Source: Candidatus Levybacteria bacterium RIFCSPHIGHO2_01_FULL_41_15 (lineage in GTDB: Bacteria; Patescibacteriota; Microgenomatia; Levybacterales; UBA12049). From it: a stretch of DNA of 54,400 bases. Under the pieces are notes generated by a model, which worked only from the letters and a program-made list of their open reading frames with translations, did not search any database and had not been told where the DNA came from. The stretch covers positions 1 to 54,400 of the forward strand of contig MFNV01000008.1 in NCBI GenBank assembly GCA_001782165.1. The letters run 5' to 3'. This document shows, in pieces, positions 1 to 1,250 of this stretch (position 1 is the stretch's first letter; each line of letters begins with the position of its first letter). A program made the position numbers and the translations under genes.

Positions 1-35
<35 letters not shown>

Positions 36-94
36 CCCTTAAGTGGGGAAACGAGCGCAACCCCCGCCCAATGTTAAATATTCATTGGGGACGG

Positions 95-193
95 TCCCCT
101 CTTTTTGTCGATAATCGTAAGTTAAACAAATTAGTTTAAGCTTTCAGGCGGAAAAGAAATACCATTGAAAGTATTGTCGCTAAAAAGAGGGGA
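95..193 (+). other. Structured non-coding intervening sequence in the 16S hairpin at about E. coli 1160-1175
   Basis: About 75 extra nt (107-181) between TCCCCTCTTTTT (95-106) and AAAAAGAGGGGA (182-193), where a short loop is normal. Internal hairpins TTAAAC/GTTTAA and CTTTCA/TGAAAG. Confidence 0.85.
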
Positions 194-453
194 AGGAAGG
201 AGGGGAAGACGTCAAGTCAGCACGGCCCTTATGCCCTGGGCTACACACACACTACAATGGCGAAAAACAACGGGTTGCAAGCCGGCAACGGCAAGCTAAT
301 CCCTAAAATTTCGTCTCAGTTCAGATTGGGGGCTGAAACCCGCCCCCATGAAGTTGGAATTGGTAGTAATCGCGGATCAGCAAGCCGCGGTGAATACGTT
401 CTCGGGTCTTGTACACACCGCCCGTCAAGGCAGCAAAGTCGGTGGTAGACGAA

Positions 454-765
454 TCCCCTCTTTTTGGGCTTTATGATAAGCTAATAAGAGATGTACTACT
501 TTTACGTTTTAAAAAGTTTGAAAACCAACAAACTTTATTTTGGTTCTACTCAAGATTTAAAAAATAGAGCATCAGAACACAATAAAGGCAGTGAGTTTTC
601 AACTAAACATGGAATTCCATGGAAGCTTGTTTATTATGAAGCTTTTTCAGTAAAATCTGATGCTCTCAGAAGAGAAAAACAAATCAAAAGATTTAAGAGC
701 GCATATGGATTTTTAAAGAAACGTATTAAAGATAGTTTGAAGGCATAGAACCTAAAAAGAGGGGA
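454..765 (+). mobile_element. Protein-coding intervening sequence at the tip of 16S helix 44
   Basis: Sits between GGTAGACGAA and GAGTCTAAAATCGGC. Closed by TCCCCTCTTTTT (454-465) / AAAAAGAGGGGA (754-765). Carries a GIY-YIG ORF. Confidence 0.85.
491..748 (+). CDS. Stand-alone GIY-YIG nuclease (85 aa) inside the 16S rRNA insertion
   Basis: YFYVL...LYFGSTQDLKNR...H...T...PWKLVYYE...ALRREKQIK matches the GIY-YIG/UPF0213 pattern. Confidence 0.92.
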   Translation: MYYFYVLKSLKTNKLYFGSTQDLKNRASEHNKGSEFSTKHGIPWKLVYYEAFSVKSDALRREKQIKRFKSAYGFLKKRIKDSLKA

Positions 766-888
766 GAGTCTAAAATCGGCGATGAGGCTTAAGTCGTAAC
801 AAGGTATCCCTAGCCGAAGCTGGGGATGGATCACCTCCTTTCTAATCCTTCGATTTTACTCAGGATTAGATTGGGGAAGACACCTAAA

Positions 889-916
889 CCCCCCTCCTTT
901 TTTAAAAAGAAGGGGG
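889..916. repeat. Near-perfect palindrome resembling an empty copy of the insertion-closing stem
   Basis: CCCCCCTCCTTTTTT-AAAAAGAAGGGGG, about 50 nt after the 16S 3' end. Confidence 0.7.
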
Positions 917-1087
917 AATTTTCAATTTCAAATTTTCAATTTCCAATTTGGAAAGCGATTGAGAGCGAAAATTTTGTGAGAAAGTGTATAAACGGCAACA
1001 AGTGGAATAGCACTTGGTTTTGTCCGCTATACTGAGGACAAACAAAAATCTATTCAGGTTTTCCTACCACTTCTTGGCTGACAAGCT

Positions 1088-1125
1088 AAAAACCACCCAT
1101 TCGGTATTACTCAGGGTGGTTTTTT
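1088..1125 (+). terminator. Intrinsic terminator downstream of 16S
   Basis: AAAAACCACCC / GGGTGGTTTTTT stem ending in a T-run. Confidence 0.65.
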
Positions 1126-1169
1126 GGTGAACAAATCTGATATACTTGAAGCTGGTAAAATAACTTAAA

Positions 1170-1242
1170 GGCGCGGTGGTGAAGTAGCTAACACAGCTGT
1201 CTGCAGAACAGCCATTCAGGGGTGCAAGTCCCCTTCGCGCCT
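1170..1242 (+). tRNA. tRNA-Cys(GCA)
   Basis: GGCGCGG/TCGCGCC acceptor stem, GCTGT-ctGCAga-ACAGC anticodon arm, AGGGG/CCCCT T arm, U discriminator, CCA not encoded. Confidence 0.93.
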
Positions 1243-1250
1243 CACATTTT

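What the first reader, a model, noticed from the sequence alone, without database searches (positions are those of the whole stretch)
95..916. Two different 16S rRNA insertions share an identical terminal stem, and an empty copy follows the gene
Seen: the ~75-nt non-coding insertion (95-193) and the ~290-nt GIY-YIG-coding insertion (454-765) occupy different helices. Both begin TCCCCTCTTTTTG and end CTAAAAAGAGGGGA, giving an identical 12-bp stem. A near-identical palindrome with no cargo lies at 889-916. Known: CPR 16S genes often carry insertions, some encoding nucleases; IVS in other bacteria are excised by RNase III from long stems. Inference: this is one element family defined by its ends. 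It would have an autonomous nuclease-carrying member and a non-autonomous short member, or a shared excision signal. Neither insertion shows a group I or group II core that I can recognise.
Basis: partly seen in the sequence, partly recalled or inferred. Interest (0 to 1): 0.82.

Follow-up and report, generated by a model that had tools for sequence, protein, structure and literature searches.

The report
Hairpin-ended nuclease cassettes in 16S rRNA
Two extra pieces in this uncultured bacterium's 16S ribosomal RNA gene, one carrying a tiny nuclease gene and one carrying no gene, belong to one family of hairpin-shaped inserts that replace helix tips and share the same 11 base pairs at their ends; such inserts are catalogued, but I found no description of the shared ends or their strain-to-strain variation.

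Summary
The window starts inside a Levybacteria-type (CPR) 16S rRNA gene. A 99-nt non-coding insert (95-193) replaces the tip of helix 40. A 312-nt insert (454-765) replaces the tip of helix 44 and carries an intact 85-aa GIY-YIG nuclease gene. Both start TCCCCTCTTTTTG and end CTAAAAAGAGGGGA, and both stems run on to about 21-22 bp.

A related Levybacterium carries the same ends at three helices (h26, h40, h44). Across seven elements, 11 stem pairs never vary, a G.U follows, and the inner pairs covary. Cargo interiors are unrelated.

Public DNA runs hold the cassette without the h40 insert, plus empty alleles of both sites. The 889-916 palindrome is a related variant with one extra C.A pair, not an identical empty copy, and it also looks like a terminator.

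Best reading (0.55): one family of hairpin-swapping, IVS-like elements, with a shared core recognised by an Ssn/Slx1-like nuclease. Excision from the RNA could not be tested. This is a new variant of a known kind.

The parts
1..843 (+). 3' part of a 16S rRNA gene (Rfam model position 1042 to the end); the mature 3' end GGATCACCTCCTTTC lies at 829-843
   Evidence: Rfam RF00177, 307.5 bits; the sequence itself
95..193 (+). Non-coding hairpin element that replaces the native ~17-nt tip of helix 40. The stem arms are 95-115 and 173-193. The interior forms two small hairpins.
   Evidence: Native tips in relatives. Empty allele TCCC-GATTTTATC-GGGA in DNA runs.
95..107 (+). 5' terminus TCCCCTCTTTTTG, identical to 454-466
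180..193 (+). 3' terminus CTAAAAAGAGGGGA, identical to 752-765
454..765 (+). 312-nt hairpin-closed GIY-YIG cassette. It replaces the native ~17-nt tip of helix 44, exactly between the conserved GAA and GAG of the h44 arms. The stem arms are 454-475 and 744-765.
   Evidence: Insertion-free relatives. Empty allele TCCC-GATTCAATC-GGGA.
491..748 (+). 85-aa single-domain GIY-YIG nuclease ORF, co-oriented with the rRNA. The stop codon lies inside the 3' stem arm.
   Evidence: Pfam PF01541, E 3.8e-16. Invariant Y5 Y16 G18 R26 H30 Y48 Y49 E50 R61 E62 K66. AF2 model pLDDT 90, with Slx1 as the best fold match.
889..916 (+). Solo hairpin CCCCCCTCCTTTTTT/AAAAAGAAGGGGG in the 16S 3' trailer. It is a variant of the family stem with one extra C.A pair, and it is also terminator-like.
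   Evidence: The same TCC/GAA variant occurs in L008/L009 and in an RNase P RNA gene, L247.
1061..1076 (+). Conserved trailer strand TTCCTACCACTTCTTG. In L001 it is complementary to the 16S leader (L001 1288-1303 CAAGAAGTGGTAGGAA). This is a leader-trailer processing stem and marks the end of the pre-16S region that holds the solo hairpin.
   Evidence: Invariant block in the trailer alignment; L001 leader sequence. The pairing is my own reading of the sequences.

Best explanation
**What it is.** The two inserts, and more loosely the solo hairpin, are members of one family of hairpin-ended elements. The family colonises the tips of helices in structured-RNA genes of Levybacteria-type CPR bacteria.

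**Anatomy of an element.** Each element is a closed stem-loop.
- An invariant 11-bp core, CCCCTCTTTTT/AAAAAGAGGGG.
- A closing pair that is either U-A or C-G.
- A G.U pair at position 13.
- About 8 more pairs of free sequence, giving roughly 21-22 bp in all.
- Any cargo in the loop.

**DNA level (inferred).** The element does not insert into a helix tip. It replaces the native terminal hairpin. In the closest empty alleles that hairpin is TCCC-GATTyaATC-GGGA at both h40 and h44.
- The 312-nt member is the autonomous one. Its only gene is an 85-aa Ssn/Slx1-like single-domain GIY-YIG nuclease.
- I propose that this nuclease recognises the conserved core when it is extruded as a hairpin in single-stranded or cruciform DNA.
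- Its cut would start copying or exchange into other hairpin-forming sites, helped by the TCCC/GGGA microhomology.
- The non-coding h40 member shares only the ends. It would be moved in trans, or built by the same end-directed exchange.

**RNA level (inferred).** The ~21-22-bp stem stacks on the host helix, so 16S folding is preserved. The insert is most likely cut out of the precursor in mid-stem by RNase III, as classical rRNA intervening sequences are. That would leave a fragmented but working 16S rRNA.

**Shown:**
- the anatomy;
- replacement of native tips;
- sharing of the ends across three helices;
- the pattern of core invariance with covariation on both sides of it;
- variation in presence between samples;
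- an intact nuclease active site.

**Inferred:**
- which enzyme acts on the ends;
- DNA-level mobility as the cause of the spread;
- excision from the RNA.
For: **1. Identical 13/14-nt termini at two helices.** There is no other copy in 54 kb. Both stems are 21-22 bp.

**2. Insertion-free relatives lack the stem.** Their native tips at both sites are short and variable. The distance from CCGCCCGTCA to AAGTCGTA is 77-79 nt in them. In the window, 363 nt lie between CCCGTCA and AAGTCGTAACAAGG.

**3. The same ends recur in relatives.**
- L001 carries them at h26, h40 and h44.
- L007 has a solo hairpin nested inside its cassette. L008 and L009 have two solo hairpins.

**4. The stem evolves like a recognised structure.** Seven elements from four organisms were compared.
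- Pairs 2-12 are invariant. Pair 1 is U-A in four and C-G in three. Pair 13 is G.U in six of seven.
- Ten pairs show changes on both sides. 92.2% of cells pair, against 79.6% in shuffles (0 of 500 shuffles reach it) and at most 66% when the partner is slid.
- Over the same comparisons the ORFs are only 62-80% identical in DNA.

**5. Only the ends are shared.** Cargo interiors are unrelated.

**6. Presence varies between samples.**
- Runs X1-X5 hold the cassette unitig 428-791 with 0 differences at 5-19x. They have zero depth over the h40 insert, and X1, X2 and X4 still have none at 85% likeness.
- Only X9 holds the h40 insert (69-219, 0 differences), and it has no cassette contig.
- Empty alleles of both sites occur with matching flanks.
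- A second h40 insert with the same ends but other cargo is present in X2 and X4.

**7. The nuclease looks functional.** Its catalytic residues are invariant in 22 homologues. The fold is closest to Slx1 (TM 0.67, rmsd 1.9 A) and UPF0213, ahead of I-TevI.

**8. More distant cassettes have their own stems and other sites.** These include 16S h6, an intergenic site and a site beside a tRNA gene. Ends travel with the protein, as in Ssn nucleases and their hairpin repeats (PMC11893778).

**9. The same hairpin core occurs in another structured-RNA gene.** It forms three helix tips of an RNase P RNA gene on an unrelated contig (L247). It also forms P3 in L194.
Against: - **No cleavage or movement was observed.**
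- **No target-site duplication.** There are also no copies outside the rRNA gene in this 54-kb window.
- **The motif alone is not diagnostic.** A metagenome-wide scan for the short hairpin returned at least 120 hits. Most were generic terminator-like palindromes. Only one lay in rRNA by BLAST and one in an Rfam-called RNase P RNA. None had a GIY-YIG gene on the same locus.
- **The cross-run polymorphism rests on Logan unitigs.** These show presence better than absence. No served run holds both inserts together. Linkage of the two rests on three short-read assemblies (the window, L010, L011).
- **Other cassette lineages do not share ends across sites.** No such sharing was seen in the flanks I could read.
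- **RNase III excision is untested.** No RNA run holds the cassette.
- **An RNA-level factor could explain the same conservation.** Exact core conservation could equally reflect such a factor.
Confidence: 0.55

Rival explanations
1. **Shared RNA processing signal.** On this reading the two inserts have separate origins. Their stems are identical because the same host RNA-processing activity must recognise and remove both from pre-16S rRNA. That activity could be RNase III or a sequence-specific factor. Short-tract gene conversion within the gene keeps the stems alike. The GIY-YIG gene is a passenger or an ordinary homing nuclease, and it has no role at the stems.
For: - Stems of 21-22 bp match the length of RNase III substrates and of classical IVS stems (PMC4990558).
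- The inner stem covaries while unrelated cargo still pairs, which is selection for structure.
- The G.U at pair 13 is kept on the transcribed-sense strand in 6 of 7 elements.
- The lineage uses a long leader-trailer stem around 16S.
- The closing pair is the same at both sites within the window, and at h40 and h44 of L001.
- CPR rRNA inserts are reported to be removed from transcripts (PMC11270868, citing Brown et al. 2015).
Against: - To my knowledge RNase III has little sequence specificity. Eleven invariant pairs across elements whose ORFs are only 62-80% identical are therefore more than it would require.
- The presence/absence pattern among samples with identical cassette and trailer sequence points to DNA-level gain and loss. 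So does the hairpin nested inside the L007 cassette.
- More distant cassettes carry other stems that go with their own proteins, including in non-rRNA sites.
Confidence: 0.25
2. **Retained expansion segments.** The stems and their cargo stay in the mature ribosome as lineage-specific extensions of h26, h40 and h44. The conserved core would be a binding site for a ribosomal or assembly protein.
For: - All sites are tips of peripheral helices of variable length.
- The stems stack coaxially on the host helix in the predicted folds.
- No RNA data exclude retention.
Against: - A 312-nt insert with a translated-looking ORF at the tip of h44 would be an unusual ribosome component.
- Close relatives, and strains from the same aquifer samples, do without the inserts.
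- Similar solo hairpins lie in the trailer and in a separate 16S 3' insertion, both outside mature rRNA.
- Published work reports that CPR rRNA inserts are absent from transcripts (PMC11270868).
Confidence: 0.07
3. **Assembly artefact.** On this reading the co-occurrence of the two inserts in one gene comes from joining two 16S alleles of co-existing strains across the conserved 260-nt spacer. The 'sharing within one gene' would then be sharing within a population.
For: - No served sequencing run holds both inserts. X1-X5 have the cassette only, and X9 has the h40 insert only.
- Inverted repeats do confuse assemblers. L263 is a fold-back chimera at its cassette stem.
Against: - Two contigs from two further ENA assemblies link both inserts exactly as the window does. 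L010 spans both whole inserts. L011 spans from inside the h40 insert through the cassette.
- L001 and L004 come from different sources, and each carries all three elements on one contig.
- Even if the artefact were real, the family-by-ends conclusion would stand.
Confidence: 0.05

Closest known systems
Non-intron insertion sequences encoding GIY-YIG proteins in CPR 16S/23S rRNA genes (Brown et al. 2015, as cited in Tsurumaki et al. 2024, J Bacteriol, PMC11270868)
   Same: - A CPR rRNA gene with a GIY-YIG ORF.
- No group I or II intron core.
- Located in poorly conserved helix regions.
- Sporadic distribution.

This is the catalogue class the h44 insert belongs to.
   Different: - That paper treats the GIY-YIG inserts as sparse, and as probably outside homing.
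- A term search of the paper (stem, inverted repeat, palindrome) found no description of terminal stems.
- It therefore reports no shared ends between coding and non-coding inserts, no hairpin replacement and no strain-level variation.
- It assigns short non-intron inserts to RNase III-type IVS by position only.
Classical bacterial rRNA intervening sequences (IVS): Salmonella, Leptospira and Coxiella 23S h25/h45 IVS, some with an ORF (S23p/IVP) (PMC4990558)
   Same: - A selfish insert at a helix tip, bounded by terminal inverted repeats that form a long stem (28 bp in Coxiella).
- Sporadic among relatives.
- May carry a small ORF.
- Tolerated because RNase III cuts it out in mid-stem without religation.
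   Different: - Here the host gene is 16S.
- The ORF is a nuclease rather than an S23p/IVP four-helix protein.
- The same invariant stem core is reused at up to three helices of one gene and by ORF-less members. To my knowledge that is not reported for classical IVS.
- Excision is untested here.
Ssn site-specific ssDNA nucleases with their NTS/SRM hairpin repeats (Chenal et al. 2025, Nat Commun, PMC11893778)
   Same: - A single-domain GIY-YIG protein of ~85-95 aa with no DNA-binding domain.
- The gene is physically tied to 20-50-nt hairpin-forming inverted repeats that recur elsewhere and co-vary with the protein.
- Those authors note that the repeat-gene-repeat layout is IS-like.
   Different: - In Ssn loci, complete hairpins flank the gene. 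Here the gene sits inside one hairpin, whose two arms are the repeat.
- The copies lie at helix tips of structured-RNA genes rather than being dispersed intergenically.
- Membership in the Ssn sequence family (cd10448) could not be tested.
- The known Ssn role is restriction of transforming ssDNA, not mobility.
Slx1 structure-specific endonuclease and bacterial UPF0213 (YhbQ-type) GIY-YIG proteins
   Same: - Best fold matches: Slx1 7cq3_A (TM 0.67, rmsd 1.9 A, 30% identity) and BH0048 1zg2.
- Best sequence matches in the PDB: 1zg2 and 1ywl.
- Slx1 cuts branched and stem-loop DNA, which suggests a structure-reading nuclease.
   Different: - Slx1 has a RING domain and needs Slx4.
- UPF0213 proteins have no known link to inverted repeats or to rRNA genes.
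Palindromic mini-elements and MITEs that live inside genes (Rickettsia palindromic elements, Neisseria Correia elements; own knowledge)
   Same: - Short hairpin-forming repeats.
- Non-autonomous copies that share only their ends.
- Inserted where the product tolerates an extra hairpin.
   Different: - No target-site duplication here.
- The native hairpin is replaced rather than split.
- An autonomous partner of only ~310 bp with a GIY-YIG nuclease, not a DDE transposase.

Membership tests
Non-intron GIY-YIG insertion sequences of CPR rRNA genes | Insert within a CPR 16S/23S rRNA gene, relative to insertion-free homologues | tested here: met
   Rfam alignment. Insertion-free Levybacteria 16S genes. 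The closest named homologue is from Ca. Levybacteria.
Non-intron GIY-YIG insertion sequences of CPR rRNA genes | Encodes a GIY-YIG domain protein | tested here: met
   PF01541, E 3.8e-16, 59.6 bits against a cutoff of 22.6
Non-intron GIY-YIG insertion sequences of CPR rRNA genes | No group I or group II intron core | tested here: met
   No intron family at the gathering score or at E<=1
Classical rRNA intervening sequence (RNase III type) | Sits at the tip of a variable rRNA helix and is sporadic among relatives | tested here: met
   h40 and h44 in the window; h26, h40 and h44 in L001. Absent at one or both sites in L007, L008, L026, L036, L039, L046, L059 and L090.
Classical rRNA intervening sequence (RNase III type) | Complementary termini form a long stem (about 20 bp or more) | tested here: met
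   21- and 22-nt arms at 86% complementarity. Folds. 92% of cells pair over 22 pairs in 7 elements.
Classical rRNA intervening sequence (RNase III type) | Excised from the precursor by RNase III without religation, giving fragmented rRNA | not testable with these tools
   No RNA run holds the cassette. The metatranscriptome contigs that match come from relatives with native tips. The own genome could not be searched for rnc.
Ssn nuclease / SRM hairpin-repeat system | Single-domain GIY-YIG protein of roughly 80-150 aa with intact catalytic residues | tested here: met
   85 aa. Invariant Y5, Y16, R26, H30, E50. Confident GIY-YIG fold, pLDDT 90.
Ssn nuclease / SRM hairpin-repeat system | Gene flanked by hairpin-forming inverted repeats that recur elsewhere in the genome | tested here: inconclusive
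   The gene is enclosed by one hairpin. The arms of that hairpin recur at h40, and at h26 and h40 in L001. Complete flanking hairpins are seen only in L007, where one is nested. Genome-wide recurrence could not be tested.
Ssn nuclease / SRM hairpin-repeat system | Sequence membership in CDD family cd10448 | not testable with these tools
   No CDD search and no Ssn reference sequence were available. The nearest solved relatives are UPF0213 proteins and Slx1.
Ssn nuclease / SRM hairpin-repeat system | Site-specific cleavage of single-stranded DNA next to the hairpin | not testable with these tools
   Needs biochemistry
Intron-encoded GIY-YIG homing endonuclease (I-TevI type) | Lies within a self-splicing intron | tested here: not met
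   No intron model matches. Only about 25 nt of non-coding interior lie upstream of the ORF and about 4 nt downstream.
Intron-encoded GIY-YIG homing endonuclease (I-TevI type) | Catalytic domain joined to a separate DNA-binding domain | tested here: not met
   85 aa, catalytic domain only. NCBIfam TIGR01453 scores 23.8 bits against a cutoff of 56. I-TevI ranks below Slx1 and UPF0213.
MITE-like non-autonomous element | Shares terminal inverted repeats with an autonomous element but lacks its gene | tested here: met
   Identical 13/14-nt ends. The interior is unrelated.
MITE-like non-autonomous element | Target-site duplication and many dispersed copies | tested here: not met
   No direct repeat flanks either insert; the native hairpin is replaced. 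No further copies in the 54-kb window.

The most novel reading that the evidence does not exclude
**A previously unrecognised class of autonomous mobile element, only ~310 bp long.**
- Its only protein would be an 85-aa GIY-YIG nuclease that reads the element's own 11-bp hairpin core in extruded or single-stranded DNA.
- It would move by swapping whole terminal hairpins of structured-RNA genes (16S, 23S, RNase P), not by cut-and-paste insertion.
- It would mobilise gene-less hairpins that carry the same core.

**A bolder sub-variant.** The same protein would also cleave the stems in the pre-rRNA. The element would then encode its own excision enzyme.
Probability: 0.3. Interest if true: 0.85.

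Novelty: new variant of a known kind. Interest (0 to 1): 0.6.

Why it matters
- **It turns a catalogue entry into a mechanism that can be tested.** GIY-YIG inserts in CPR rRNA genes have been listed, and judged to be probably outside homing, without a way of spreading. This locus gives a defined 11-bp core, a G.U pair, a required stem length, defined empty target hairpins, and natural coding, non-coding and solo members.
- **It would extend the Ssn family.** If the nuclease reads its own hairpin, the newly characterised Ssn nucleases would gain a link to mobile DNA. It would also define one of the smallest self-contained mobile units known.
- **It would explain a feature of reduced genomes.** It would account for how extra hairpins spread through essential RNA genes there.
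- **It has practical consequences.**
  - Such inserts break 16S assemblies; a fold-back chimera was seen here.
  - They distort 16S-based surveys of CPR bacteria.
  - Sequence-specific hairpin nucleases are of interest as ssDNA tools.

Tried and rejected
- **Own genome.** I could not look for 23S, RNase P or other copies, or for rnc.
- **Genome-contig scan.** A 24-nt 16S signature proved too general. Most of the 120 hits were Chloroflexi and Bacteroidetes. Only eight CPR loci were usable, but seven of them had the h44 landmarks and supplied the insertion-free tips.
- **Metagenome-contig scan.** I scanned for the short hairpin CCCCTCYTTTT-N(0-30)-AAAARRAGGGG.
  - It returned at least 120 hits. 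Most were generic terminator-like palindromes from many habitats.
  - Only one had rRNA flanks and one lay in an Rfam-called RNase P RNA.
  - No locus held a GIY-YIG ORF.
  - The motif alone is therefore not diagnostic. The scan did turn up the RNase P case L247.
- **Non-coding inserts as internally deleted cassettes.** Rejected. Their interiors show no similarity beyond shuffles.
- **Intron reading.** Rejected.
- **RNA evidence.**
  - Four groundwater metatranscriptomes give zero depth over both insert interiors, but their contigs come from relatives with native tips.
  - No RNA run holds the cassette.
  - The SOLiD runs of the source study are too small.
- **Viral contigs.** No relative of the nuclease was found.
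- **L263.** It is the closest cassette (80% aa), but it had to be dropped from the covariation count. The contig folds back on itself at the cassette stem, so its outer pairs are not independent.
- **End-sharing in more distant cassette lineages.** Not seen in L012, L262, L260 or L258 within the flanks held.
Full report
**1. What is in the window**

The window begins inside a bacterial 16S rRNA gene. Rfam aligns 1-843 to the SSU model from position 1042 to the 3' end.

- *First insert.* The alignment shows an 88-nt surplus in the hairpin at model ~1150-1170, which is helix 40. Its flanks are GACGG and AGGAAGG.
- *Second insert.* It lies between CCCGTCA and AAGTCGTAACAAGG, at the tip of helix 44.
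- *Shared ends.* TCCCCTCTTTTTG occurs exactly at 95-107 and 454-466. Its complement occurs with one mismatch at 181-193 and 753-765. No other site in the 54.4 kb has fewer than 2 mismatches.
- *Folding.* Both inserts fold as closed hairpins stacked on the host helix, far better than shuffled sequence.
- *The ORF.* The h44 insert holds an 85-aa ORF (491-748) that matches Pfam GIY-YIG at E 3.8e-16.
- *No intron.* No intron family matches, even at E<=1.

**2. The inserts replace native hairpins**

Six insertion-free relatives were recovered: L026, L039, L059, L090, L046 and L036.

- They have a 17-21-nt h40 tip and a 16-18-nt h44 tip, both of variable sequence.
- The h44 tip always lies between a conserved GAA and GAG.
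- The distance from CCGCCCGTCA to AAGTCGTA is 77-79 nt.
- L007 and L008 carry the h44 cassette but have a native h40, GGTCCCGATTTTATCGGGGA or close to it.

In the window, the whole native tip is exchanged for the element at both sites: GACGG|TCCCC...GGGGA|AGGAAGG and GACGAA|TCCCC...GGGGA|GAGTC. There is no target duplication.

DNA contigs from the source-type groundwater runs show the matching empty alleles.

- h40: TCCC-GATTTTATC-GGGA, with 62 nt of flank and no difference.
- h44: TCCC-GATTCAATC-GGGA, with 30-nt flanks.

The two empty tips are thus almost the same 17-nt hairpin. That could be what makes both sites targets.

**3. The family in relatives**

The nuclease has 86 homologues in the word-indexed search. 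Many sit on 0.5-2-kb contigs, as rRNA fragments do. The closest named one is from Ca. Levybacteria.

- *L001.* This Levybacteria genome contig carries the same ends at three helices: h26 (placed by Rfam), h40 and h44. The h44 copy holds the nuclease. L004, from another source, repeats this.
- *L007.* Its cassette holds a nested solo hairpin, TCCCCTCTTTTTTGAAAAAGGAGGGGA.
- *L008 and L009.* Each has two solo hairpins, TCCCCTCCTTTT...AAAAGAAGGGGA. One lies in a separate 16S 3' insertion that carries a 23S_rRNA_IVP ORF. The other lies in the trailer.

*Conservation of the stem.* Seven elements from four organisms were compared.

- Pairs 2-12 of the stem never vary.
- Pair 1 is U-A in four and C-G in three.
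- Pair 13 is G.U in six.
- Pairs 14-21 covary freely.
- 92.2% of cells pair, against 79.6% in shuffles (0 of 500 reach it) and at most 66% with slid partners.

Over the same comparisons the ORFs are only 62-80% identical in DNA. The non-coding interiors have no similarity to the cassette interior.

The family is therefore defined by its ends. It has a sequence-specific core plus a requirement for stem length.

**4. Variation between samples**

- Runs X1-X5 hold the cassette unitig (428-791, no difference) at 5-19x, and X1-X4 also hold the trailer. They have zero depth across the h40 insert interior. For X1, X2 and X4 this holds even at 85% likeness.
- Only X9 holds the h40 insert (69-219, no difference, 3.1x). 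It has no cassette contig.
- X2 and X4 also hold an h40 insert with the same ends and other cargo, seen as a joint from 104 to 184.
- Both inserts are linked on contigs from two further ENA assemblies, L010 and L011.

This looks like recent gain or loss. Unitigs show presence better than absence, so I treat it as suggestive.

**5. The nuclease**

- Y5, Y16, G18, R26, H30, Y48, Y49, E50, R61, E62 and K66 are invariant in 22 homologues.
- The AlphaFold model is confident (pLDDT 90).
- Its best solved neighbours are Slx1 (TM 0.67, rmsd 1.9 A) and the UPF0213 protein BH0048. I-TevI ranks lower.
- NCBIfam's group I intron endonuclease model is far below its cutoff.
- The wider family is large: 6,807 cluster representatives at E<=1e-3, mostly 80-130 aa.

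More distant cassettes (50-60% identity) have their own tight stems and other homes.

- L012: 16S h6, stem CCCCACTCTTTTTGG.
- L262: 16S h6, stem CCGCCCCACATTC.
- L260: an intergenic site.
- L258 and L015: beside tRNA genes.
- L014 and L261: no obvious repeat.

Ends thus travel with the protein. Chenal et al. describe the same relation for Ssn nucleases. These are single-domain GIY-YIG enzymes that cut ssDNA next to cognate hairpin repeats, in a layout the authors call IS-like (PMC11893778).

**6. The 'empty copy'**

The 889-916 palindrome is a variant with one extra C.A pair. It lies in the pre-16S trailer, between the mature 3' end and the conserved strand TTCCTACCACTTCTTG. In L001 that strand pairs with the 16S leader.

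- *Position.* L008 has its trailer hairpin at a different position, and L001 and L007 have none.
- *Elsewhere.* The same TCC/GAA variant forms two helix tips of an RNase P RNA gene on an unrelated contig, L247. A third tip there has the TCT/GAG form. L194 has the motif as P3.
- *Rival reading.* The terminator scan flags the window hairpin. Hairpins of this general form are common in metagenomes.

It is related, but it is not proof of an empty site.

**7. How it most likely works**

*Shown:* the anatomy, the replacement of tips, the shared invariant core, the covarying extension, the between-sample variation and the intact active site.

*Inferred:*

- The core is the recognition site of the encoded Ssn/Slx1-like nuclease, acting on an extruded DNA hairpin.
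- Exchange into other hairpin-forming tips spreads both coding and gene-less members.
- In the RNA, the ~21-22-bp stem preserves 16S folding and is probably cut by RNase III, as in classical IVS such as the 28-bp stem of Coxiella (PMC4990558).

The main rival is a purely RNA-level signal kept alike by gene conversion. It explains the stem length, the covariation and the G.U pair. It does not explain 11 invariant pairs or the gain-and-loss pattern.

**8. Novelty and limits**

GIY-YIG, non-intron inserts in CPR rRNA genes are published (PMC11270868). Ssn-hairpin pairs are published for other bacteria. In the searchable literature I found no description of the following:

- shared ends across helices and across coding and non-coding members;
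- replacement of the native hairpin;
- the core-plus-length rule.

Earlier notes of this scan report the same kind of cassette in other CPR genomes. I used them only as leads.

Limits:

- No RNA data for this organism.
- The polymorphism rests on unitigs.
- No biochemistry was possible.

Noticed in passing
L008 661-1430 (also L009; short form in L263): A second, unrelated insertion splits the 16S 3' end at AAGTCGTA^ACAAGG. In L008 it is ~770 nt and carries a 121-aa 23S_rRNA_IVP ORF. In L263 it is ~270 nt and has no ORF. Both hold a solo CCCCTCC...GAAGGGG-type hairpin at the same internal position. Rfam calls no intron there.
   Followed up: partly
L247 560-1010 (minus strand); L194 132-469: L247 holds an RNase P RNA gene, collinear with the Rfam-called L194 gene. 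Three of its helix tips are hairpins of the same core: twice CCCCCTCCTTTTGCGCAAGCGCGAAAAGAAGGGGG and once CCCCCTCTTTTTGATCAAAAAGAGGGGG. One of them replaces a short GGCCGTGAGGCT hairpin of L194. No GIY-YIG gene lies on the 6.8-kb contig.
   Followed up: partly
L244 96-239 and 1243-1386; L237 ~970-1130; L225 ~314-474: A ~130-144-nt conserved unit on low-GC metagenome contigs. It reads AACAAAACCTTTAC, then the CCCCTCC...GAAGGGG hairpin, then GTGCTCAATGTTG...CAACATTGAG, and ends at an ATG. It is repeated upstream of different ORFs. This may be a mobile or regulatory 5' leader module. Its function is unknown.
   Followed up: partly
L263 1-1031: The contig is a fold-back chimera. The sequence to the left of the cassette's 5' arm is the reverse complement of the sequence to the right of the 3' arm. 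The cassette's inverted repeat can mislead short-read assemblers, which is a caution for CPR 16S sequences in databases.
   Followed up: yes
window 844-1243: The 16S gene is not followed by a 23S gene. After a trailer comes a classical terminator-like hairpin, ACCACCC...GGGTGGTTTTTT (about 1092-1126). Then come tRNA-Cys (1170-1243) and protein genes. The trailer also holds an AT-rich run of AATTTTCAATTTC-like repeats (917-950).
   Followed up: no
window 454-466 versus 829-843: The 5' arm UCCCCUCUUUUU resembles the anti-Shine-Dalgarno tail of 16S, so closely that Rfam first aligned 451-464 to the 16S 3' end. The 3' arm AAAAAGAGGGGA is Shine-Dalgarno-like. Whether this purine/pyrimidine asymmetry has a function is unknown.
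   Followed up: no
L001 1510-1680: A fourth insertion in the L001 16S gene, in the 5' domain. It has different, AT-rich ends built from GAAATCCGAAA / TTTCGAATTTCGAA repeats, so not all inserts in that gene belong to the CCCCTCTTTTT family.
   Followed up: no
L014 1057-3474: A 23S_rRNA_IVP/bAvd-like gene lies between two BPD_transp_2 permease ORFs. A GIY-YIG homologue (52% identity) directly follows the second one, with no detectable inverted repeat. This is a non-rRNA context for both small 'IVS-type' genes.
   Followed up: no
window 95-193, runs X2 and X4: These runs contain contigs that match the window through position 104 and again from 184, with other sequence between (depth 56-75). This is an h40 insert with the same termini but different cargo in a more abundant organism, possibly the L001 type.
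   Followed up: partly
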